DNA of 14,113 bases from IMG/VR virus record IMGVR_UViG_2778261687_000004, positions 1 through 14,113 of that record; one strand, 5' to 3'. The DNA comes from a virus. Lineage: Duplodnaviria; Heunggongvirae; Uroviricota; Caudoviricetes. The stretch's first letter is position 1. Each line of letters opens with the position of its first letter. The notes beneath the pieces are model-generated. The model saw nothing but the letters and a program-made list of their open reading frames with translations. It searched no databases and was not told the DNA's origin. Shown in pieces: positions 1 to 13,114 of this stretch. The position numbers and the translations under genes are program-made.

Positions 1-174
1 ATGATTGAACAAATTAACATCGCTCTTGAGCAAAAAGGGTCCGGGAATTTCTCAGCCTGGGTCATTGAAGCCTGCCGCCGGAGACTGTGCTCAGAAAAAA
101 GAGTTTCTTCTGAAGCAAACAAAGAAAAGAGTGACATTACTGAATTGCTCAGAAAACAGGTCAGACCAGATTGA
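1..174 (+). CDS. Small hypothetical protein (57 codons, ATG at window position 1, TGA at 172-174); may be a complete small gene or the 3' end of a longer one (ynfO position)
   Basis: Open frame from position 1 to TGA 172-174 (MIEQINIALEQKGSGNFSAWVIEACRRRL...). Not in the ORF track because it starts at the window edge. Name by synteny only. Confidence 0.45.
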   Translation: MIEQINIALEQKGSGNFSAWVIEACRRRLCSEKRVSSEANKEKSDITELLRKQVRPD

Positions 175-216
175 AGCAATTTAGATAATCGTGCAGACTA
201 CGCCCCCTCATATCAC

Positions 217-642
217 ATGGAAGGTTTATCTATGGATCAGGTAGTCATTTTTAAACAAATATTTGATAAAGTTCGAAACGATTTAAACTATCAATGGTTT
301 TATTCTGAGCTAAAACGTCACAATGTCTCACATTACATTTACTATTTAGCCACAGAGAATGTTCATATTGTATTAAAAAATGATAATACAGTGTTATTAA
401 AGGGCCTAAAAAACATTGTGTCTGTCAAATTTTCAAAGGATAGGCATCTTATAGAAACGACCTCTAATAAGCTGAAATCCAGAGAGATCACATTTCAGGA
501 ATACAGAAGAAACCTTGCTAAAGCAGGAGTTTTTCGGTGGGTTACAAATATCCACGAACAAAAAAGATATTACTATACCTTTGATAATTCATTACTATTT
601 ACTGAAAGCATCCAGAAAACTACACAGATCTTACCACGCTAA
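217..642 (+). CDS. ydfO: DUF1398-family prophage protein (YdfO-like); alternative start ATG 232 gives 136 aa
   Basis: 141-aa ORF in the track; sequence and position upstream of gnsB match my memory of the YdfO/YbcV family. Confidence 0.7.
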
Positions 643-650
643 ACCATAAC

Positions 651-679
651 GTCCGGCTTCTCTCACTCCTGAGCCGGAC
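651..679 (+). terminator. Possible stem-loop downstream of ydfO (8-bp stem GTCCGGCT/AGCCGGAC, 13-nt loop), weak U-tract
   Basis: Inverted repeat 651-658 / 672-679 seen directly; the following T-tract is poor, so terminator function is uncertain. Confidence 0.3.
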
Positions 680-793
680 TGCATTGGTTTAATAAAAACC
701 ATCAACAATTGTGATTTAGATATTCGGAACCATTCAAATATAACAAAACCCCGTAAAAACGAGGTTTATGGATAAATTTTATTATTGAATACA

Positions 794-968
794 TCAGATT
801 AAATTAATCTTGACATCATAGCTTTCAAGACCCGTCATTTTTTCCCGTGCGGTAAACTGAATACTGGTAACTTCTTTCCCGGTCTTTTTCTTAAGTTCAA
901 TAATTTTTTTTTGTTATATATTCAGAAATATCTGCTTCTGCTTTTGTTTTTAAGTTTTCAATATTCAT
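794..968 (-). pseudogene. gnsB: GnsA/GnsB-family gene disrupted by a 1-nt frameshift in a T9 homopolymer (plus 904-912)
   Basis: Minus strand ATG at 968 with RBS AGAGGAAA. Translation MNIENLKTKAEADISEYITKK then the frame breaks in the A9 run (TAT TGA). With A8 it reads ...KKIIELKKKTGKEVTSIQFTAREKMTGLESYDVKINLI* (57 aa, GnsB-like). Span is 175 nt, not a multiple of 3. Confidence 0.6.
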
Positions 969-1139
969 CATTTCCTCTTTTAGTCTGTTATGACTTTCCA
1001 GTTACACAGTAAGTCGATTATATGGTGCAAACGTGTAAAAGATAAGATGAAACATCGCAATAATCAACATACGATAGTCTAAATTTTACACAAACAGACA
1101 AAGAGAATTTTCCTGAATTATCAATGCAATAGCATCAAA

Positions 1140-1373
1140 TCAACTCAAGAGCCTTATTGCTGCTTCCAGAATTTCTTCTGAAGTAACATGTCGATCCGCG
1201 GCTACATAAATGACTTTATGATCTCCGGTCAGAGATGGAAACCCTGCGGCCATTACAGTAAGGTGTGTTTTTTCGCCATTTGGATATTCACGCATGATGG
1301 TGTTAACTCCAGTCATCGCTGGCACTACCACTGCTGGTTCAGAGTTAAAAAAAACTATGATTTTTTTCATGAT
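1140..1373 (-). CDS. Hypothetical 77-aa protein at the ynfN position between cspI and gnsB
   Basis: ORF-track entry 1140..1412 begins with TTG; the first ATG is at 1373 (MKKIIVFFNSEPAVVVPAMTGV...). No strong SD. Identity not recognised. Confidence 0.45.
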   Translation of the reverse strand: MMKKIIVFFNSEPAVVVPAMTGVNTIMREYPNGEKTHLTVMAAGFPSLTGDHKVIYVAADRHVTSEEILEAAIRLLS

Positions 1374-1414
1374 GTTACCGTAGTATGTGAGTATCCATCG
1401 AATAGACACCAAGC

Positions 1415-1434
1415 AAAAAAGCTCCCGAAGGAGC
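1415..1434 (-). terminator. Intrinsic terminator for the minus-strand cspI transcript
   Basis: Hairpin GCTCC-CGAA-GGAGC (1421-1434) preceded on plus by A6 (1415-1420), so the minus-strand RNA has the stem followed by U6. Confidence 0.55.
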
Positions 1435-1641
1435 CTTCATTTTCACTTTTTTAAATCCAACGACAGACGGCTGGCATTTAAGTATTGTGAAATATTATCA
1501 AATGTAATCATCATTGATTTACAAAAGATACATTTTGCCCCGAAAGGATTCATGTCAGAAACATCAAAAGATGATGTTCTATACTGGGAACCATGACAAC
1601 ACGGGCATCTAAAGTGAATATGGTTTGTAATATTGTCTACC

Positions 1642-1854
1642 TCAAAGCGCCACTACATGAACAGCGGCAGGACCTTTAGGTCCGTTCTCAATACCAAATT
1701 CAACTTCCTGATTCTCAGTTAATGTTTTGAAATCGTTGCTCTGAATTGCTGAGAAATGGACAAACACATCTTTGCTGCCATCTTTCGGCGTGATGAAACC
1801 AAAACCTTTTTCAGGGTTAAACCATTTCACTAAACCAGTCATTTTGTTAGACAT
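1642..1854 (-). CDS. cspI: Cold-shock protein, CspA family (70 aa)
   Basis: [38 protein letters not shown]... contains the canonical cold-shock domain RNP motifs (KGFGFI, VFVHF). Paralog assignment is by synteny next to the lysis cassette. Confidence 0.88.
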
Positions 1855-2216
1855 AATTATTACCTTTTGAAGAAATTAGCCCTTGGGCAGAATGGTCCGA
1901 AAAAAAATATCAGAGAGAAAAACCAACAAGGAAATCTCAAGAGGTACAAATAATAAAATTATAACAATGACTGCTTCAGATAAATTTGTAACAAACCAGA
2001 ACACCATTAACGCATGATTAACCACCCATAGCAAGGATTACTTTTGTAAAGAAAAACACAGCAATGAAAGAATAGCTTTATTTATTAATAAAACGTGTCA
2101 TTCTGATTAAGACCTTTTATCTTACCCTTAAGATTTCAGGAATTTTGGCTCATGGAAGAGTCCTTTTTATTTAAATTTTACATTCCGCGATGTAAATGTT
2201 CCGATTTAATATTACC

Positions 2217-3239
<1,023 letters not shown>

Positions 3240-3243
<4 letters not shown>

Positions 3244-3551
3244 AGATATTTATGATGAGGACGCTCGTGCTTATTGGCAGGATTTTCAATCTTAAAGGAG
3301 TACTGATGCTGCAGATAAGACTCAACTTTTTCTGACAATTTTTCTGCTACTTCCAGGAAGACTTGCCGGACGCTCCTTCTGGCTGCTGCCTCATAAAACT
3401 CCAGCGCAGCTCCTTCAACACGGTCCATGGCGACATCCAGGTCAAAAATTTCACCGTCAAAGCGTTCTTTGTCCTGTAAGGCTACAGTTACCGTAACTTT
3501 ATTCTCAAAATTACGGACTCCTTTCACAACCAGTTCATAGTCTTGAGTCAT
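3240..3551 (-). CDS. ydfR: DUF1327-family prophage protein (YdfR-like), translationally coupled to the endolysin
   Basis: 103-aa ORF with RBS GAGAGGAG upstream of ATG 3551; its stop overlaps the endolysin start (ATGA 3240-3243). Confidence 0.75.
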
Positions 3552-3555
3552 TGGA

Positions 3556-3771
3556 TTACTCTCCTCTCGCAGCCTTACGCCTGTCTTCTTTAATCTTGAA
3601 ATAAAGATTTGTCAGATACGTCAGCAGGCCAAAAACCAGGCTACCCAGCACACCGATTGCAGCCCACTGTGACGGAGTTACTTTATCGAGTAACTGCAAT
3701 GCCCAGAAACCAGCATTACCCGCCGATGTGCCATAGGCAACACCTGTTGTTAACTTATCCATTGATTTCAT
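3556..3771 (-). CDS. essQ: Class II holin / pinholin (S21-like, 71 aa) with dual-start motif MKSM
   Basis: [71 protein letters not shown] has two TM segments and a charged C-terminus. The longer track ORF (to 3846) has a non-holin-like N-terminal extension. Confidence 0.8.
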
Positions 3772-3990
3772 ATCCTCACCCCGATGTACACGGATGGTGC
3801 AATATGTTTGAAAAGATCGGAGTCTACGGGGTAGTTTTGACAGCACACGTTGTTCTCAACGGCGCTAAAAAAACATACACATTAAAAATGTGGGTAATTA
3901 TTTTGAAAGAAAGTCATATATAAAATAATAATACGAGAAATGTTTTCATATTTAGTGTACTGTATACGGCCATTTATACAGGAAAAGCCT

Positions 3991-4161
3991 ATGTCAGAAC
4001 GTAAAAACTCAAAATCACGCCGTAATTATCTCGTTAAATGTTCCTGCCCAAACTGCACCCAAGAGTCAGAACACAGTTTTTCAAGAGTACAAAAAGGTGC
4101 CCTTTTGATCTGCCCTCATTGCAACAAAGTATTCCAGACAAATCTTAAAGCTGTAGCCTGA
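3991..4161 (+). CDS. ynfU: Small zinc-ribbon protein (56 aa, CxxC...CxxC), YnfU-like
   Basis: ATG 3991 with RBS AGGAAA 5 nt upstream; MSERKNSKSRRNYLVKCSCPNCTQESEHSFSRVQKGALLICPHCNKVFQTNLKAVA carries two CxxC pairs. Symbol from memory of K-12 small-protein annotation, not verified. Confidence 0.6.
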   Translation: MSERKNSKSRRNYLVKCSCPNCTQESEHSFSRVQKGALLICPHCNKVFQTNLKAVA

Positions 4162-4220
4162 TTGATTTTATTAGTAACAAGTATTTTTTATATTTTAATA
4201 ATATATTTAAAGCAGATAAT

Positions 4221-4243
4221 AAAAAACCCGCCTGAGCGGGTTT
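4221..4243. terminator. Bidirectional intrinsic terminator between convergent ynfU-like (+) and cspB (-)
   Basis: A6-CCCGC-CTGA-GCGGG-TTT; on the minus strand the stem is followed by U6. Confidence 0.6.
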
Positions 4244-4524
4244 GAGATTGTGGTGCTTTTTGTGGGAGTCATCCACTTACGCACTTTGTTTTGCCATGCC
4301 AGCAGTTAGCTTCTGCTGTAAAACTATTCATGCAGCAAACCTGCACTTCACCACAATGGTTAGCATACTTTTCCTGATTAAGATTTTGCCAAATATGCTA
4401 GCCATTGTTTCATGTATTGGACCTCCTTACTTTTTATTAAAGAGATCCAATATTCACTACTCTGTCCGTATCTCTACTCAGGCATCAGCCTTCTTCGTTA
4501 TCGTATACAGACGAGCGATGAATT

Positions 4525-4740
4525 TTAATCAGTAATGATGACATTTGCTGCTGCAGGACCTTTAGCACCACTCTCTATAGAGAAGGTAACCTTTTGACCT
4601 TCAAATAAGGTTCGATAATTATCATTCTGAATCGCAGAAAAATGCACAAACACATCTTTACTACCATCAACAGGAGAAATAAAGCCGAAACCTTTATCAG
4701 CGTTAAACCATTTTACTAAACCAGTCATTTTATTTGACAT
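4525..4740 (-). CDS. cspB: Cold-shock protein, CspA family (71 aa)
   Basis: [67 protein letters not shown]...; RBS AAGGAA; long 5' leader. Confidence 0.88.
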
Positions 4741-4757
4741 TCTACATTCCTTAACTT

Positions 4758-4769
4758 GAGCCTTTCGGC
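4758..4769 (-). promoter_or_regulatory. csp 5'-UTR 'upstream box'-like element (GCCGAAAGGCTC) just 5' of the cspB SD
   Basis: Minus strand reads ATGCCGAAAGGCTCAAGTTAAGGAATGTAGA-ATG. This is one mismatch from the cspA-family upstream-box consensus GCCGAAAGGCACA as I recall it. Confidence 0.5.
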
Positions 4770-5040
4770 ATAAATGGTTTGCATAACAGAAACGACTTCG
4801 TACTTAATTGGAGAGACTCAAAGAAGGAATAAGTGAATAACACCTGAAATGAGAACTGCTTTAGTAAACTACTTCGTATATCGTCTGTTCTTCAAACCGA
4901 CGCAATCATTAACGCATAGTTGAACATATGAAGCAATGTTTATTTTAGACATCCAGCCATCTTCAACCCCATCAAAAAACTATAGCTTTCTTCAGGAACG
5001 TGTGTATAGTGCGCCAAGTTATCAGTATTAAGGAATTTTT

Positions 5041-5253
5041 TTGTCCCGTAAAATGACAGGAATTGTCAAAACCTTTGACGGCAAAAGCGGCAAGGGTCTT
5101 ATCACCCCATCCGATGGTCGTATCGATGTCCAGCTTCATGTTTCAGCGCTCAATCTCCGCGATGCAGAAGAAATTACCACCGGATTACGCGTGGAATTTT
5201 GCCGGATAAATGGTCTGCGTGGCCCTTCAGCTGCCAATGTTTACCTTTCATGA
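5041..5253 (+). CDS. cspF: Cold-shock-domain protein of the CspF/CspH subgroup (70 aa), apparent TTG start
   Basis: [70 protein letters not shown]; SD AAGGAA 6 nt upstream of TTG 5041; next ATG is codon 5 (5053). Divergent from cspB. Confidence 0.8.
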
Positions 5254-5307
5254 GCTATATTAAAGCTTTAATTTCAGGCCCCATCGGATCACACATGGAG
5301 AGTTTTT

Positions 5308-5397
5308 ATGAATAACCCCGTCTGTCTTGATGACTGGTTGATTGGCTTTAAAAGCTTATGCTGTACTTTGGCCGTAATAGCTCTGCTAATAATATAA
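5308..5397 (+). CDS. Candidate 29-aa hydrophobic small protein downstream of cspF
   Basis: ATG 5308 preceded by GGAGAG 5 nt upstream; [29 protein letters not shown], with a C-terminal hydrophobic segment. Below the ORF-track length cutoff. Confidence 0.35.
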
Positions 5398-5548
5398 TAA
5401 GCAGACTCATTGTGTTTAGGGACATTGTACTGGAAGAAAACATTTTAAACATCAGGCAAATAACCAAGTCACCAGCTAAATAATAAGTTAACAGACATGA
5501 GTCCCGGGATGAGATTCAACATTACCATTGCCCCATTTAAAGCACAAA

Positions 5549-5569
5549 ACCCGCTCATCAGCGGGTTTT
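5549..5569. terminator. Bidirectional intrinsic terminator between cspF-side (+) and quuQ (-) transcription
   Basis: AAAA-ACCCGCT-CATC-AGCGGGT-TTT: 7-bp GC-rich stem, 4-nt loop, A-tract before and T-tract after. Confidence 0.6.
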
Positions 5570-5674
5570 CTACTTTTTCTTAACGTCGGGTATACAAAGC
5601 CCATCGTTGAAAAAATTTTATCCATATTTTTTGAAAAATGCAAACATCATGTCGCCATCTTCAGCAAAAATCAT

Positions 5675-6427
5675 TTATCTCGTCACCTTCCTCAATTGCG
5701 CTTCCGCGTATGCTTCTTCCTGCCAGCACTTTGTTACCAGTTTACCAATGACGTCCGCATACCCCTTATACCACTGATAATCGGTCAGGTCTGGTACCAG
5801 CTTCTGGACATGACGTCGTGCCAACGTGGTCGGTAAACGACTAAACCGGTTTCCATTACAACGCCCACAAATCTTATATACCGGTACGCCATGAAACCGG
5901 GTTCTTTTTTCATCCAGAACAATCCCTTTACCCTTACACCCTCTGCACGCTGTGCTGGCTTCGCCCTTACCATGGCAATGCTGACATAGTTCCTTCACCC
6001 ATTATTCCTTGATTACAGATTCCCCGCGTCTGTAGTGTTTCACCACTTCGCGCAATACATTATAAAATCCCGTACCTGAACAATGCTCACAGCGAGCCTT
6101 ACTTGCCGCAGACCTGGAGTAATCAGCAAAGGCAAAACTCACGAGGTAAGGAATAATCTGTAACCGGATTTCTTCACTCAATTTGTTCAATGTCGGGTTA
6201 TCCAGTGCCATCGCGTAATTTAGCAGGCCTTCAATCGCAAACTGAGGGTCCTGAACACCAACTTTTGCCAGAAATAAGGCCAACCCAAGTGGTGCTTTCG
6301 ACTGCACCATCCCCTGCGCTGCCATTACATCCGTAATTGTTAAACAACCGGTGCCTGTCGCTGGAGCGTCATCGCTCAATTTTGGAGATTTTGGGGAGTA
6401 ATATTTTGGTAAGGCTTCAAGGTTCAT
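5675..6427 (-). pseudogene. quuQ: Lambdoid late-gene antiterminator Q homolog interrupted by an in-frame TAA (plus 6002-6004)
   Basis: Track ORFs 6002..6457 (N-terminal part) and 5675..5998 (C-terminal part with zinc-finger CxxC...CxxC: CQHCHGKGEASTACRGCKGKG...CGRCNG) are in the same frame, separated only by TAA-TGG. ATG 6427 has RBS GGAGAA; counting the stop as a codon gives 250 codons. Confidence 0.75.
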
Positions 6428-6440
6428 GCTCGTTCTCCAC

Positions 6441-7325
6441 TTACGCCAGTACGCCAATTGCCAGCGCGCGATCGATAAAACGAAATATCAGCTCCAGTTG
6501 AGAGCCATACTTATCTTCAAATGCCACTGTATCCGTATGCAGCTCGTTGTGATGCTTTCTGCACAAAGGCAACACAAAGAGATCATGTGCTTTTGTTCCC
6601 ATTCCGCCCTGCCCGTGACCAATCAGATGATGCGGATCGTCGGCTGGCATACCGCAGCAAGCACACGGCTGTGTCTTAACCCAACGTGTGTATTTCTCCT
6701 TAACCCAGCGGCGACGTTTAGGCAGCTTCATGAAAGATTCCGGAGACTCTGGATCAACGGTGATGCTTACCACCGTCTTTTCCTGTGGTGATTTTTGTTG
6801 CTGGTGGGCGTAAGGCAACGGTGCAAGATTTTTTGTGCGTTGTTTCAATATGCTGGTGGCGGTCTGCTCTCCCGGTACGATGTCGCTTTCGCGGTACACC
6901 GAGCAGATTTTTTCCGCTGGTAATCCCAGCGAACGACGCGATACAGCCTCAGGTAGTGCATCCACCACCTGATTGCAGACCGCCCACCAGGATAATTCAG
7001 CCAAAGATAATTCCCGCTCCTGCGTACCGCTTATTGCGTGACGGATGACGTCAATCACCCATGCTGTCAGATTTTGTTGAGCAAGCAGCTCCAGTGATTC
7101 CGATGTCTGGTCACGCAGTTGGTTGTCGCAGTGCCAGCACAACACCATTGCGCCGGTACCATAACGGTGAATGACTGTTTCAGTGTGATGGTAATCGCCA
7201 TTAGGCCACTGGCAGGATGTAACATGACGTAATAGCCAGTCGGACAATGCGCCAACCCGCGCCTGCGGTAAGAATGAATCAGCCATTCGGCCTGTTCTGC
7301 AGTGCATGGAGGGTGCTGGAACCAT
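6441..7325 (-). CDS. ydfU: DUF968-family prophage protein with C-terminal HNH/zinc-finger-like motif (YdfU-like); probably the 3' portion of a frameshifted gene
   Basis: 294-aa ORF; C-terminus CACCGMPADDPHHLIGHGQGGMGTKAHDLFVLPLCRKHHNELH. Its ATG is immediately preceded by an in-frame TGA and has no SD. Confidence 0.8.
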   Translation of the reverse strand: MVPAPSMHCRTGRMADSFLPQARVGALSDWLLRHVTSCQWPNGDYHHTETVIHRYGTGAMVLCWHCDNQLRDQTSESLELLAQQNLTAWVIDVIRHAISGTQERELSLAELSWWAVCNQVVDALPEAVSRRSLGLPAEKICSVYRESDIVPGEQTATSILKQRTKNLAPLPYAHQQQKSPQEKTVVSITVDPESPESFMKLPKRRRWVKEKYTRWVKTQPCACCGMPADDPHHLIGHGQGGMGTKAHDLFVLPLCRKHHNELHTDTVAFEDKYGSQLELIFRFIDRALAIGVLA

Positions 7326-7414: not shown

Positions 7415-7752
7415 CGGTTTTCTCCGGTGGCACGGTGTTACTCAGCGGGAGTTCAGCCCCGCGCAAGATTGTAGATGAGTTTATTCTCCTGAAAAAGCAG
7501 AAAAGCCAGCTTTTATTCCGATCTCTTTCAATGCCTGTAATGAAGTGACAAACTCACCTTCGCGCAAGATAAATCCGTCCGTGACCTGACCTGTCGATAA
7601 AGGAACGTAACACGTTTTATGCAACACCCGCATGCGGCAGAAAATTATTGCCGAACGTTTACCCCTGTCAACAAGCTTTACTTTCTGAGGCGCGCCAGCC
7701 CGCGAGGAAAACAATCTGAACATCAAACAATTAATGACACAAGAAATACGAT

Positions 7753-8571: not shown

Positions 8572-9885
8572 TCAATCTTTTTTATCGGGATCAGGCTTCT
8601 TTTTAGGTAACTTCGGGGGCTTAACTTGCTGATGACTTTGCGTTCGGCGCGTAAGCCAGGGATGGTCAGCTTTAGGTTTAACATAGTATTTTGAGCGTAA
8701 ATCAATACGGGCATTATCCACTCGTTCATGGACACTCTTTTCATCATCCAGTGGTATAGGCTCCGGGCCATCAACATACTTTTCCCAGCCCAGCGCTTTC
8801 CCGTCATACAGAACGTTAATTTCACCGTCAAAGTTCTCGCATACAGTAACAACCGAATGCCTAAGTCGATATCCCCGGCCCTCACTGCGTACCTGAAACG
8901 CACTGCTTTTGTACTGGAAAGTGAGATTTTTAGACAGAACGCGCTTCGCCTGTAGGCTGAAGATATAACCCAGTTCCTCTTCAGAATGGTGCACATCAAG
9001 ATGAGCATTATCAGTAGTACGAGGCGACGTAGCGAACCGGTTGTTATAGGCTTCAATAAAGGTCGGCAACCATGCATTTGCTGTTTCAATATCACTGATA
9101 TTCTGAAGCCGCATTTCTTTGACCAGCCTGTCCTGTAGTGTCTGATTGGCGCGCTCTACCCGCCCTTTTGCCTGCGGGCTGTTGGCATGGATTGGCTCGA
9201 TGCCCAGTGTCTTTATCGCACGAGTGAACTGGGTCAGCTCACCTTCCCGCTCTGGGTTATTTACCCTGAATATACTGTGTCTATCAGAGTAGAGAGCGAG
9301 CGGTACGCCATGATCATTAAGGTAACCCCGGAGGGTTTCCATGTAAGCCCGGGTTGTTTCAGCAGGCACAAAACGCAACGCCATCAACGCACTGGTGGCA
9401 TCATCAATGAAAACGATCAGTGTACATCTGGGGCCTCGATTTTCAAACCAGTCATGAGGTGAGCCATCAATCTGGATCAGTTCACCGTAAGATGGTCGTC
9501 GCATGCGGCGTTGATATATACGGGCAATTTTACGACGGCGTTCACGCCATAACCCCTCTTCTATCATCCACTTTCTGAGAGTTTCAACGGATAAAGATAA
9601 ACCGTGTATCTCGCGCAATTTTTCGCACGCAAACGTAGGTCCAAAATCAGCGTAACGGCCTTTGAGGAGTGAAATTACTGTTGCTCTGAATTCAGTAGAA
9701 AAGGAATTATTAGGACGCTTTCCACGTCGGTGGGAAACCAGACCAGAAGGCCCTTCATTTCTATACCGTTGCACCAGACGTTTAACCTGCCGAATAGAAA
9801 TGCCAATGCGTGCCGCAGCTTGTTCCTGAATAATCTGAAGTCGGTGGAGTTCCTTATGACTCATCGTAACAGTCTCTTTGATCAT
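8572..9885 (-). CDS. Transposase-like protein, N-terminal HTH plus DDE/rve integrase-core domain and C-terminal extension (437 aa); probably IS481-family-like, family not verified
   Basis: N-terminal HTH (GISIRQVKRLVQRYRNEGPSGLVSHRRGKRPNN); D residues in LIQIDGSPHDWF and VFIDDATS; HANSPQAKGRVERANQTLQDRL resembles the retroviral-integrase-type E motif. RBS TGGGGGAT upstream of ATG 9885. Confidence 0.8.
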   Translation of the reverse strand: MIKETVTMSHKELHRLQIIQEQAAARIGISIRQVKRLVQRYRNEGPSGLVSHRRGKRPNNSFSTEFRATVISLLKGRYADFGPTFACEKLREIHGLSLSVETLRKWMIEEGLWRERRRKIARIYQRRMRRPSYGELIQIDGSPHDWFENRGPRCTLIVFIDDATSALMALRFVPAETTRAYMETLRGYLNDHGVPLALYSDRHSIFRVNNPEREGELTQFTRAIKTLGIEPIHANSPQAKGRVERANQTLQDRLVKEMRLQNISDIETANAWLPTFIEAYNNRFATSPRTTDNAHLDVHHSEEELGYIFSLQAKRVLSKNLTFQYKSSAFQVRSEGRGYRLRHSVVTVCENFDGEINVLYDGKALGWEKYVDGPEPIPLDDEKSVHERVDNARIDLRSKYYVKPKADHPWLTRRTQSHQQVKPPKLPKKKPDPDKKD

Positions 9886-9973
9886 GAAAAATCCCCCAGA
9901 GAATTGTCTGGGGACATTTTAGAATGGTTCAAAGGGGACATTACAGCTTGGTGTTAACAATAGCCTGCTTCTC

Positions 9974-9989
9974 CGTGCCTTTCGGCACG
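9974..9989 (-). other. GNRA-tetraloop hairpin (CGTGCC-GAAA-GGCACG) resembling a csp 'upstream box', followed by SD-like GGAGAAG, with no nearby start codon
   Basis: Minus strand reads ACGTGCCGAAAGGCACGGAGAAGCAGGC; GCCGAAAGGCAC matches the cspA-family upstream-box consensus as I recall it. Confidence 0.4.
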
Positions 9990-10219
9990 TAAGAGGCTAA
10001 CCTACATGTGTCTAGCATGAAATTGGCCTCAGATTAATGTTAAGCGTCTTGCAGGACGCGTAATGTTAACTGGGGCTTTTCTCTATCTGCCGTTGGTGTC
10101 CATGCCCGAGGCAGATAGCCTCAAGCACCCGCAGTCATTCTACTTAACTAAGATTTCCCCGCAAACCGTTTTTGTCCAGCACAGTAAATATCCAACTAAA
10201 CCAATGGAGTTCGCTGTAT

Positions 10220-10399
10220 TTACCGCCAGTATTCAATGCACATGACCGCCATGAACACCCCTAAAAAAAGGGCATTTATATATCCAAATATTAATATCAA
10301 AACATCAACTTTTTCCATATACCTTGCTGTGAAGATGATGGGCATACATGATGCGAACAACCAGAACGCAACAAACAAAAACTGCAATGCGTTTTTCAT
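10220..10399 (-). CDS. Candidate small membrane protein (59 aa, two predicted TM helices)
   Basis: Strong SD AGGAGG 4 nt upstream of ATG 10399; MKNALQFLFVAFWLFASCMPIIFTARYMEKVDVLILIFGYINALFLGVFMAVMCIEYWR. The longer track ORF starts with GTG and lacks a usable SD. Confidence 0.5.
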   Translation of the reverse strand: MKNALQFLFVAFWLFASCMPIIFTARYMEKVDVLILIFGYINALFLGVFMAVMCIEYWR

Positions 10400-11016
10400 T
10401 ATTCCTCCTACAATCAATGTGCAATTACATTTAAACACACCTCAATTTGGCCGGACATATAAATATCTAAACCAGAAAAAATCACTTACATAGCGTTACA
10501 AACTCTTTAGTCTAAAGGTTCATCGTAAAACATTCCCCATACTTATCAGTCCGTTCCGCGCCAGGTAGCTCATTGCCTTATCTGGCAACCTGTAATCAGG
10601 TTTCCGCTTTTTCAGTTGGCTGGTCGTTTAACCGACATAGTTAATCCATTAATCTAGTTGCCGGATGTTGGTGGATTTTCGCGTTTTAGTTGTTCATAAA
10701 AGTGCACAGCTTTAACCAGTTCTTCTGATGTAACTGGGACTGGTGAGGCAGTGAATAAGGCCTGAATTTGATAGTTCGGCCTGTCGTTACAATCCTCTTT
10801 TTTCGGTACATATTTCCAGTCACCAGACCACTACTTCCCCTGAAAGTCCGTAACGCCTTTTTTCACGTAGCGATATCGCCATGCCACTGGTTTTGCTTGC
10901 CCCGCCGTTTCATGCCCTTCCTGATAATTAATCTCGCTCATTCATCGCCCCACTCATCACAATATGCTTCGACCGGAGTTTTTCCCGCTTCATAGTCATC
11001 ACGCTAGGATTCGACA

Positions 11017-11316
11017 TCAGCAGCACTTCCACCGCGTAGCCTCCATAATTGCAGGCACTAGCGCCGTGAACTTTTCACGCTTATCCCTGGTGTCGATAGC
11101 CTTCCAGCGTTCAAATATCTTCACTCGATTAACGCCAAGCGCTCGCTGATCAATCGCGCCACCTTCATATGTGACACGCTGAACATCGATGTTCGGGCGC
11201 TCTTTCAAAGCCCAGAATGCTTCAGTGATTAATATCGTCGCCTGCTCCTGTGTCATTCCTGGTCGACATATCCAGGCATCCAGAGCCTCACGAGCCTGTT
11301 CAGGAGTGATTTTCAT
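11017..11316 (-). CDS. Hypothetical 99-aa protein immediately downstream of dicC, overlapping it by 17 nt (ydfX position)
   Basis: ORF MKITPEQAREALDAWICRPGMTQEQATILITEAFWALKERPNIDVQRV...; the dicC stop (11300-11302) lies inside it in another frame. Weak SD. Confidence 0.5.
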   Translation of the reverse strand: MKITPEQAREALDAWICRPGMTQEQATILITEAFWALKERPNIDVQRVTYEGGAIDQRALGVNRVKIFERWKAIDTRDKREKFTALVPAIMEATRWKCC

Positions 11317-13061: not shown

Positions 13062-13114
13062 TTTCTGGTGACGTTTGGCGGTATCAGTTTTACTCCGTGA
13101 CTGCTCTGCCGCCC
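13062..13114 (+). ncRNA. dicF: DicF small regulatory RNA (about 53 nt; ftsZ-targeting), processed from the dicB operon transcript
   Basis: TTTCTGGTGACGTTTGGCGGTATCAGTTTTACTCCGTGACTGCTCTGCCGCCC followed by TTTTT (13115-13119), between ydfC and dicB; recognised from memory of the DicF sequence; preceded by a GC-rich structured region. Confidence 0.8.

What the first reader, a model, noticed from the sequence alone, without database searches (positions are those of the whole stretch)
5675..6427. Q antiterminator homolog carries an in-frame TAA nonsense codon
The two track ORFs (6002..6457 and 5675..5998) are in the same frame, separated only by TAA (6002-6004) and TGG: ...GESVIKE * W VKELCQHCHG.... 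Together, from ATG 6427, they make a 250-codon Q-like protein with the C-terminal zinc finger. This is a point substitution, not a homopolymer slip, so it is less likely to be a sequencing artefact. It would abolish late-gene antitermination, consistent with a domesticated, non-inducible prophage, and would leave the N-terminal 141-aa fragment expressed.
Basis: partly seen in the sequence, partly recalled or inferred. Interest (0 to 1): 0.55.

Follow-up and report, generated by a model that had tools for sequence, protein, structure and literature searches.

The report
Nonsense-mutated Q antiterminator in Qin prophage
The late-gene switch (Q antiterminator, quuQ/ydfT) of the well-known defective Qin prophage of E. 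coli carries a real but lineage-private GAA→TAA stop at codon 142, which is ordinary gene decay in an already dead prophage.

Summary
On the minus strand, 6427..5675 is the 250-codon quuQ (ydfT) gene of the E. coli Qin cryptic prophage. It is broken only by TAA at 6004..6002. Against K-12 the gene has two differences: GAA(Glu142)→TAA and a synonymous CTG→TTG at Leu202.

Glu142 is the ancestral state. It is at least 90% conserved in 24 full-length homologues from many Enterobacterales. It reads GAA or GAG in all 79 other loci fetched. None of about 1,640 matching records from complete E. coli genomes carries the TAA.

The window is a whole draft contig (NLGV01000060.1). An independently built Logan assembly (SRR9914100) reproduces the TAA and the contig's other private lesions at 100% identity, so an assembly artefact is unlikely.

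QuuQ belongs to the λ-Q family (Pfam PF03589; PDB 7UBM, E = 4.6e-36). The stop removes three of four CXXC motifs and the C-terminal half that aligns to the λ helix-turn-helix. The product should therefore fail to load at the intact PR'/pause/terminator cassette just downstream.

Other assemblies carry different quuQ lesions: frameshifts, an IS3-family insertion, a deletion and a duplication. This is routine pseudogenisation. Interest is low.

The parts
5675..6427 (-). quuQ (ydfT) pseudogene: a 250-codon Q antiterminator of the Qin prophage, broken at codon 142.
   Evidence: Translation. It differs from the K-12 ydfT CDS at 2 of 753 nt. Pfam PF03589 scores 181 bits for the restored protein. PDB Qλ 7ubm matches at E = 4.6e-36.
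6002..6004 (-). The TAA nonsense codon, Glu142 (GAA) to stop. The changed base is window 6004 (+ strand A, reference C).
   Evidence: Searches give the base difference. No record in 5,426 complete E. coli genomes matches a 71-nt probe at 100%. Codon 142 is GAA or GAG in 79 of 79 other loci. E142 is at least 90% conserved in 24 homologues.
6005..6427 (-). N-terminal remnant, 141 codons. It corresponds to Qλ residues 1-125: the torus-forming N-terminus, the first half of the body, and the first CXXC motif.
   Evidence: HMMER alignment to 7ubm_Q, query 1-120 against λ 1-125. PF03589 scores 76 bits. λ domain limits come from PMC9388147.
5675..5998 (-). C-terminal remnant ORF, 107 codons from GTG144. 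It holds CXXC motifs 2-4 and the segment that aligns to Qλ 117-207, which contains the HTH helices.
   Evidence: The same 107-aa ORF is called in other assemblies whose quuQ is broken by different lesions.
5824..5824 (-). Synonymous substitution CTG to TTG at Leu202. This is the second difference from K-12 within the gene.
5603..5644 (-). PR'-like late promoter (TTTGCA, 18-nt spacer, TAAAAT, 5644..5615) followed by an AACGAT pause-element-like sequence (5608..5603). The TCAACGATGGG stretch is identical to the matching stretch downstream of λ Q.
   Evidence: Promoter scan. Alignment with λ J02459 downstream of Q. No difference from K-12 in this stretch.
5546..5569 (-). tR'-like intrinsic terminator: a 10-bp stem followed by a T-rich tail (TTTTGTGCTTT on the minus strand). 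It would be the first barrier that Q must override. The pattern scan called this stem-loop on the + strand; reading it as a minus-strand terminator rests on the palindromic stem and the tail read directly from the sequence.
   Evidence: Terminator scan, + strand call. Minus-strand sequence read directly. The role is inferred from the λ cassette layout (PMC9388147).
2267..3771 (-). Downstream lysis cassette, the presumed Q-dependent late genes: essD holin 3771..3556, ydfR 3551..3240, rrrQ lysozyme 3243..2710, rzpQ 2713..2267. In this lineage rzpQ is itself frameshifted.
   Evidence: Gene calls and Pfam hits on the source contig. K-12 annotation. rzpQ frameshift. Dependence on Q is inferred from the lambdoid gene order and was not tested.

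Best explanation
This is the quuQ (ydfT) gene of the defective lambdoid prophage Qin of E. coli. A single G-to-T transversion on the coding strand turned Glu142 (GAA) into TAA and inactivated the gene. The intact protein is a λ-type Q factor. By analogy with λ Q, it would bind a Q-binding element at the late promoter just downstream of its own gene. It would load onto RNA polymerase paused at the σ-dependent pause element, and let the polymerase read through the adjacent terminator into the lysis genes. The truncated 141-residue product keeps the N-terminal torus-forming region and half of the four-helix body. It lacks three of the four CXXC zinc ligand pairs and the whole C-terminal half, including the segment that aligns to the λ helix-turn-helix. 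It should therefore be unable to bind DNA or load, and transcription from PR' should stop at the terminator. The mutation is a private, recent event in one lineage. In that lineage the same prophage has also acquired frameshifts in rzpQ and gnsB and three microhomology-flanked deletions. The simplest reading is neutral decay of a prophage that was already non-functional. Shown here: the lesion, its ancestral state, its rarity, the family assignment, and the intact downstream cassette. Inferred: loss of activity, expression of the fragment, and neutrality.
For: The gene is identified by 99.8% nucleotide identity to K-12 over 1,201 nt, with ydfU and ydfT annotated under the match.

The only in-gene differences from K-12 are 6004 (GAA to TAA) and 5824 (synonymous).

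No complete E. coli genome carries the TAA. The best hit among 1,640 matching records is 98.6%, which is one mismatch in 71 nt.

The TAA-containing 38-mer has 0 hits in the GTDB representative genomes and in the JGI metagenomes. The adjacent 38-mer has 5 and 74 hits, and all 79 of those loci read GAA or GAG.

About 100 homologues covering the full query, from Citrobacter, Salmonella, Atlantibacter, Enterobacter, Cronobacter and other genera, are single proteins of 250-269 aa. E142 is at least 90% conserved among the 24 aligned.

Family membership rests on PF03589 at 181 bits, Qλ PDB 7ubm at E = 4.6e-36, and a Foldseek search in which the only significant matches are eight Qλ chains.

λ domain map: body 61-113 and 153-207 with the HTH formed by H4-H5, zinc-ribbon arm 114-152 (PMC9388147). 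QuuQ 160-250 aligns to λ 117-207.

The downstream PR', AACGAT and terminator are present and identical to K-12.

The allele is reproduced in a Logan assembly of SRR9914100 at 100% identity over 1,948 nt and 4,154 nt, including the rzpQ and gnsB lesions.

Independent quuQ lesions occur elsewhere: +T at nt 294, +CA at nt 344, an IS3-family insertion near nt 384, an N-terminal deletion and an internal duplication.
Against: No raw reads were inspected. SRR9914100 could be the same isolate, or even the read set behind the draft assembly. In that case it excludes an assembly artefact but not a systematic sequencing error.

Loss of function was not measured.

An in-frame GTG two codons after the stop, with AAGGA 7 nt upstream, leaves room for reinitiation and a two-piece protein.

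Nothing here shows whether quuQ is transcribed at all in this strain.
Confidence: 0.9

Rival explanations
1. The TAA is a sequencing or consensus error in a draft assembly, and the gene is really intact.
For: The allele is absent from 5,426 complete genomes, from the GTDB representatives and from the JGI metagenomes. The source is a short draft contig. That contig also has homopolymer-length differences at 904 and 2435 and a single-base deletion next to a deletion junction at 7256.
Against: It is a substitution outside any homopolymer. Logan contigs from SRR9914100, built independently, are 100% identical to the window over 5049..6996 and 576..4729. They reproduce the TAA and every other private variant in those spans. 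Each of these contigs is recorded in two samples.
Confidence: 0.05
2. The gene works as a split Q. Ribosomes terminate at TAA and reinitiate at GTG144 (5998), and the 141-aa and 107-aa pieces reassemble into an active antiterminator.
For: GTG lies 3 nt after the stop, with an AAGGA Shine-Dalgarno-like sequence 7 nt upstream. The break lies inside a roughly 40-residue insertion (121-159) that λ Q lacks.
Against: No homologue is split here. The AlphaFold model places residue 142 inside the second strand of a β-hairpin (E137-147), not in a loop. The break also separates the first CXXC from the other three. The same GTG ORF appears behind unrelated lesions, so it is a by-product of the sequence and not a selected start. 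The late lysis genes are decaying in the same lineage.
Confidence: 0.03
3. The stop is read through, by an ochre suppressor or by programmed readthrough, so full-length Q is still made.
For: Nothing specific. It is only that the frame continues unbroken after the stop.
Against: There is no tRNA gene in the window. The stop is not conserved in any relative. From general knowledge of E. coli termination signals, the TAA-T context is among the most efficient. Rfam finds no recoding element here.
Confidence: 0.02

Closest known systems
QuuQ / YdfT of E. coli K-12 Qin prophage (WP_001047135.1, 250 aa)
   Same: Same gene in the same place: ydfU, then quuQ, then PR' and terminator, then cspF/cspB, then essD-ydfR-rrrQ-rzpQ. 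751 of 753 nt are identical.
   Different: The window allele has Glu142 replaced by a stop, plus one synonymous change. The K-12 allele is intact.
Bacteriophage λ Q (PDB 4MO1, 7UBJ-7UBN; Pfam PF03589, the Qλ family)
   Same: Homologous over the N-terminal torus region, the four-helix body and the zinc ribbon (E = 4.6e-36; TM 0.67-0.75 normalised to the λ chain). The cassette layout is the same, and the TCAACGATGGG stretch downstream of the -10 element is identical.
   Different: QuuQ-type proteins carry an extra 40 residues (57 in the 269-aa members) inside the zinc-ribbon arm, with a duplicated CXXCXGXG knuckle. This gives four CXXC motifs and a weak DnaJ_CXXCXGXG hit. The transcribed leader before the terminator is much shorter than the λ 6S RNA. 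The window copy is truncated.
Other disrupted quuQ alleles in public E. coli assemblies
   Same: The gene is otherwise at least 99.5% identical, and gene callers report the same 107-aa C-terminal ORF.
   Different: The lesions differ. There is +T at nt 294 (UGCX01000002.1), +CA at nt 344, an IS3-family insertion near nt 384, a deletion of the first 262 nt, and an internal duplication. Two further loci (L015 and L016) show several scattered single-base indels that may be sequencing errors. None has the E142 stop.

Membership tests
Qλ-family antiterminator (Pfam PF03589) | Sequence match to the family profile above Pfam's gathering score. | tested here: met
   The restored protein scores 181.3 bits against a cut-off of 26.7. 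The N fragment scores 76.2 bits and the C fragment 110.1 bits.
Qλ-family antiterminator (Pfam PF03589) | Homology to the solved λ Q structure across body and zinc-ribbon arm. | tested here: met
   phmmer against PDB gives 7ubm_Q at E = 4.6e-36, in two colinear stretches. In a Foldseek search with the AlphaFold model (mean pLDDT 76), the only significant hits are eight Qλ chains.
Qλ-family antiterminator (Pfam PF03589) | Conserved Cys ligands of the zinc ribbon. | tested here: met
   C113, C116, C161, C164, C187 and C190 are invariant, and C148 and C151 are at least 90% conserved, in 24 homologues. In the window they are split 1 + 3 by the stop.
Qλ-family antiterminator (Pfam PF03589) | Gene sits directly upstream of a late promoter, a σ-dependent pause element, a terminator and late (lysis) genes. 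| tested here: met
   Promoter-like site at 5644..5615, AACGAT at 5608..5603, and a stem-loop with a T-rich tail at 5569..5546 (called on the + strand by the scan). The region aligns with the λ PR' region. Holin, lysozyme and spanin genes lie downstream.
Qλ-family antiterminator (Pfam PF03589) | Uninterrupted reading frame encoding the whole protein. | tested here: not met
   TAA at codon 142. The locus is a pseudogene of a family member, not a functional member.
Qλ-family antiterminator (Pfam PF03589) | Antitermination activity at its cognate PR'/terminator. | not testable with these tools
   This needs a reporter assay or in vitro transcription.
Qin cryptic prophage quuQ orthologue | Synteny and near-identity with the K-12 Qin locus. 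| tested here: met
   Window 1..7260 is 99.88% identical to K-12 Qin in the same gene order. The window equals NLGV01000060.1 of GCA_002226155.1.
Naturally two-gene (split) Q | Relatives that are split into two genes at the same position. | tested here: not met
   About 100 full-coverage homologues are single proteins of 250-269 aa. Codon 142 is Glu in 79 of 79 loci. Split calls in other genomes stem from unrelated lesions.
Programmed stop-codon readthrough / recoding | The stop codon is conserved among relatives. | tested here: not met
   0 of about 1,640 records from complete genomes. 0 hits in the GTDB representatives and the JGI metagenomes.

The most novel reading that the evidence does not exclude
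The TAA, followed three bases later by an in-frame GTG with an upstream AAGGA, converts quuQ into a translationally coupled two-piece Q. The halves (torus plus half-body, and zinc ribbon plus HTH) would either reassemble into an active antiterminator, or the free N-terminal torus fragment would interfere with the Q proteins of co-resident lambdoid prophages.
Probability: 0.03. Interest if true: 0.45.

Novelty: already known. Interest (0 to 1): 0.1.

Why it matters
It matters little beyond correct annotation. The locus should be labelled as a quuQ pseudogene (E142*), not as two "antitermination protein" genes. It adds one more example of stepwise decay of the Qin cryptic prophage. In the same lineage the late-gene activator, a spanin gene, gnsB, the relBE-hokD toxin-antitoxin block and the replication region have all been hit. 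If the strain is ever used experimentally, its Qin lysis cassette should not be inducible through Q.

Tried and rejected
1. The exact-sequence look-up of the 141-aa fragment returned 19 contigs, which at first looked like a widespread allele. Inspection showed that six of the eight displayed contigs simply end at codon 141/142 and carry the wild-type G (…AAGGAAG). They are contig-end truncations selected by the exact-length look-up. Only the source contig and the SRR9914100 contig have the TAA.

2. A literature search for the assembly and run accessions found nothing, so the strain's identity and its relation to SRR9914100 remain unknown.

3. A literature search for quuQ/ydfT found no functional study of the protein.

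It was replaced by the adjacent 38-mer taken from the window itself.

5. A suppressor tRNA or recoding RNA in the window was looked for. There are no tRNA genes. Rfam finds only cspA leaders, sok and DicF.

6. A K-12 laboratory-strain origin was considered and rejected. The window holds 2.3 kb (8757..11035) that K-12 lacks.

Full report
**What is in the sequence.** The ORF list confirms the two same-frame minus-strand ORFs, 6002..6457 and 5675..5998. Translating 6427..5675 gives 141 codons, TAA, then 108 codons and the terminal stop...GESVIKE*WVKELCQHCHG....

**Identity of the locus.** A 1,201-nt query around the gene matches E. coli chromosomes at 99.8%, with ydfU and ydfT ("antitermination protein") annotated under the match. 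In K-12 MG1655 this is the Qin cryptic prophage, between ydfU and cspF/cspB. The window is a complete draft contig, NLGV01000060.1 of GCA_002226155.1, at 100% identity over 14,113 nt. K-12 ydfT is an uninterrupted 753-nt, 250-codon gene whose start and stop map to window 6427 and 5675.

**The lesion and its ancestral state.** Within the gene the window differs from K-12 and from strain EC17CM13 at two bases only.
- Position 6004 is A on the + strand where the references have C. On the coding strand this is GAA to TAA, Glu142 to stop.
- Position 5824 changes CTG to TTG at Leu202, which is synonymous.

The lesion is therefore a G-to-T transversion outside any homopolymer. Glu142 is at least 90% conserved among 24 full-length homologues from Escherichia, Salmonella, Citrobacter, Atlantibacter, Enterobacter, Cronobacter, Kluyvera, Raoultella and other genera.

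**How rare the allele is.**
- A 71-nt probe centred on the stop finds 1,640 records among 5,426 complete E. coli genomes. None is at 100%, and the best is 98.6%, which is one mismatch.
- The TAA-containing 38-mer has no exact match in the GTDB representative genomes or in the JGI metagenomes.
- The neighbouring 38-mer, used as a positive control, has 5 and 74 matches. All 79 of those loci read GAA (54) or GAG (25) at codon 142.

**Real mutation or error?** Raw reads were not available. A Logan assembly of run SRR9914100, built independently, yields two relevant contigs. One is 1,948 nt and 100% identical to window 5049..6996, and it contains the TAA and the neighbouring private substitutions. 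The other is 4,154 nt and 100% identical to window 576..4729, and it contains the private rzpQ and gnsB frameshifts. This argues strongly against an assembly or consensus artefact. I could not establish whether that run is the same isolate.

The other hits to the exact 141-aa sequence are misleading. They are contigs that end at codon 141/142 and carry the wild-type G.

**Is it naturally two genes?** It is not. About 100 of the 120 listed homologues cover the whole query as single proteins of 250-269 residues. The identical 107-aa C-terminal ORF is called in many other E. coli assemblies, but there it lies behind unrelated lesions:
- +T at nt 294
- +CA at nt 344
- an IS3-family insertion near nt 384
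- loss of the first 262 nt
- an internal duplication

Two further loci (L015, L016) show several scattered single-base indels that may be sequencing errors. Setting those aside, quuQ has been broken several times independently, and the GTG-initiated ORF is a gene-caller by-product.

**What the protein is.** The restored protein hits Pfam PF03589 at 181 bits. PMC9388147 names this the Qλ family. It matches λ Q in the PDB (7ubm/7ubn) at E = 4.6e-36. QuuQ 1-120 aligns to λ 1-125, and QuuQ 160-250 aligns to λ 117-207. An AlphaFold model (mean pLDDT 76) has only λ Q chains as significant structural neighbours.

Relative to λ Q, QuuQ-type proteins carry an insertion (residues 121-159) in the zinc-ribbon arm. 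The model predicts it to be a long β-hairpin (strands 121-131 and 137-147) followed by an extra CXXC. This gives four conserved CXXC(X)G motifs and a DnaJ-like signature. Codon 142 lies in the second strand of that hairpin.

**Consequence (inferred).** In λ Q the body comprises residues 61-113 and 153-207 and contains the HTH (H4-H5) that reads the Q-binding element. The zinc-ribbon arm (114-152) contacts DNA, σR4 and the β' zinc-binding domain. The C-terminal helix contacts the flap-tip helix and the torus (PMC9388147).

The 141-residue product corresponds to λ 1-125. It keeps the torus-forming N-terminus and half the body. It loses three of four CXXC pairs, the HTH-equivalent segment and the C-terminal helix. 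It should be unable to bind the Q-binding element or load onto RNA polymerase.

The target cassette is intact. It consists of a promoter-like site at 5644..5615, an AACGAT pause-like element at 5608..5603, and a stem-loop with a T-rich tail at 5569..5546; the scan called that stem-loop on the + strand, and the minus-strand reading rests on the palindromic stem and the tail seen in the sequence. The TCAACGATGGG stretch matches λ exactly in the same relative position. The whole stretch is identical to K-12. Without Q, transcripts from this promoter should end at the terminator, short of the essD-ydfR-rrrQ-rzpQ lysis genes.

**Context.** The prophage was defective long before this mutation. The same cryptic architecture with an intact quuQ occurs in well over a thousand complete genomes. 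This lineage has decayed further:
- a frameshift in gnsB (extra T at 904)
- a frameshift plus K28N in rzpQ (2435, 2630)
- three microhomology-flanked deletions relative to EC17CM13: 348 bp at the ydfU 5' end; 1,426 bp removing hokD, relE, relB and parts of rem and ydfV; and 2.5 kb of the replication region

The relBE-hokD deletion junction is not found in any complete genome. The stop codon is therefore one more step in ongoing erosion and does not explain non-inducibility.

**Rivals.**
- Sequencing error is unlikely for the reasons given above.
- A split, reinitiating Q is conceivable, because GTG lies 3 nt after the stop with AAGGA 7 nt upstream. It has no support from relatives. The break lies inside a predicted β-strand and separates the zinc ligands.
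- Readthrough has no support. There is no tRNA gene in the window, no conservation of the stop, and Rfam finds no recoding element.

**Verdict.** The finding is accurate and its interpretation essentially correct. What it describes is an ordinary, lineage-private nonsense mutation in a known gene of a known cryptic prophage. Novelty: already known kind. Interest: low.

Noticed in passing
window 904 (gnsB, minus strand, about 795..968): There is an extra T in a T-run relative to K-12 and EC17CM13. It frameshifts gnsB at codon 22 of 57. The change is reproduced in the SRR9914100 Logan contig.
   Followed up: partly
window 2267..2713 (rzpQ); changes at 2435 and 2630: One T is lost from a T-run, which frameshifts the spanin gene rzpQ after about codon 92 (148 aa instead of 165). 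There is also a K28N substitution. This exact 148-aa product is on record only in the source assembly and in SRR9914100.
   Followed up: yes
window 7581..7589 (junction): A 1,426-bp deletion relative to EC17CM13 and K-12 removes hokD, relE, relB and parts of rem and ydfV, across a GTGACC microhomology. No complete E. coli genome has this junction as one piece.
   Followed up: yes
window 7254..7260 (junction): A 348-bp deletion with short microhomology replaces the N-terminus of ydfU (DUF968). It leaves a 281-294-aa ORF in place of the 349-aa protein.
   Followed up: partly
window 11037..11047 (junction): A deletion of about 2.5 kb relative to EC17CM13 removes the replication-region genes (a DUF7167 pseudogene, a methyltransferase, DUF977 and a 321-aa protein) and part of the ydaT-like gene. 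K-12 has a different, larger deletion in the same place.
   Followed up: partly
window 8757..11035; sok hit at 9959..10130 (-), ORF 10063..10245 (+), ORF 8572..9885 (-): This 2.3-kb stretch is absent from K-12. It holds an ISNCY-family transposase-like ORF of 437 aa and an Rfam sok antitoxin RNA (104 bits) that overlaps a 60-aa ORF. It may be a second hok/sok-type module that survives while hokD has been deleted.
   Followed up: no
QuuQ residues 121-159 (window about 6067..5951): The whole QuuQ subfamily carries a 40-residue insertion in the zinc-ribbon arm relative to λ Q (57 residues in the 269-aa members). It includes a duplicated CXXCXGXG knuckle, giving four CXXC motifs, and is predicted to form a long β-hairpin. 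The λ arm tip contacts σR4 and DNA, so this subfamily may read a differently spaced Q-binding element.
   Followed up: partly
L004-L008, L010 (Logan and ENA contigs): Several unrelated assemblies have contigs that end within 1-2 nt of the codon 141/142 boundary. This is most simply a selection effect of the exact-sequence look-up. It could also mark a branch point between co-resident Q alleles.
   Followed up: partly
L028 (JAGZPX010000007.1): A contig labelled "MAG: Veillonella parvula" carries the E. coli Qin quuQ segment. This is probably binning contamination.
   Followed up: no
window 2630, 5824, 6004, 6501: All four substitutions that separate this contig from both reference Qin copies are changes to A on the + strand (T>A, G>A, C>A, G>A). 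The number is too small to interpret.
   Followed up: no
window 4509..4901, 1615..2000, 13063..13114: Rfam finds cspA-type thermoregulator leaders upstream of cspB and cspI, and the DicF sRNA. These features of Qin appear intact in this lineage.
   Followed up: no
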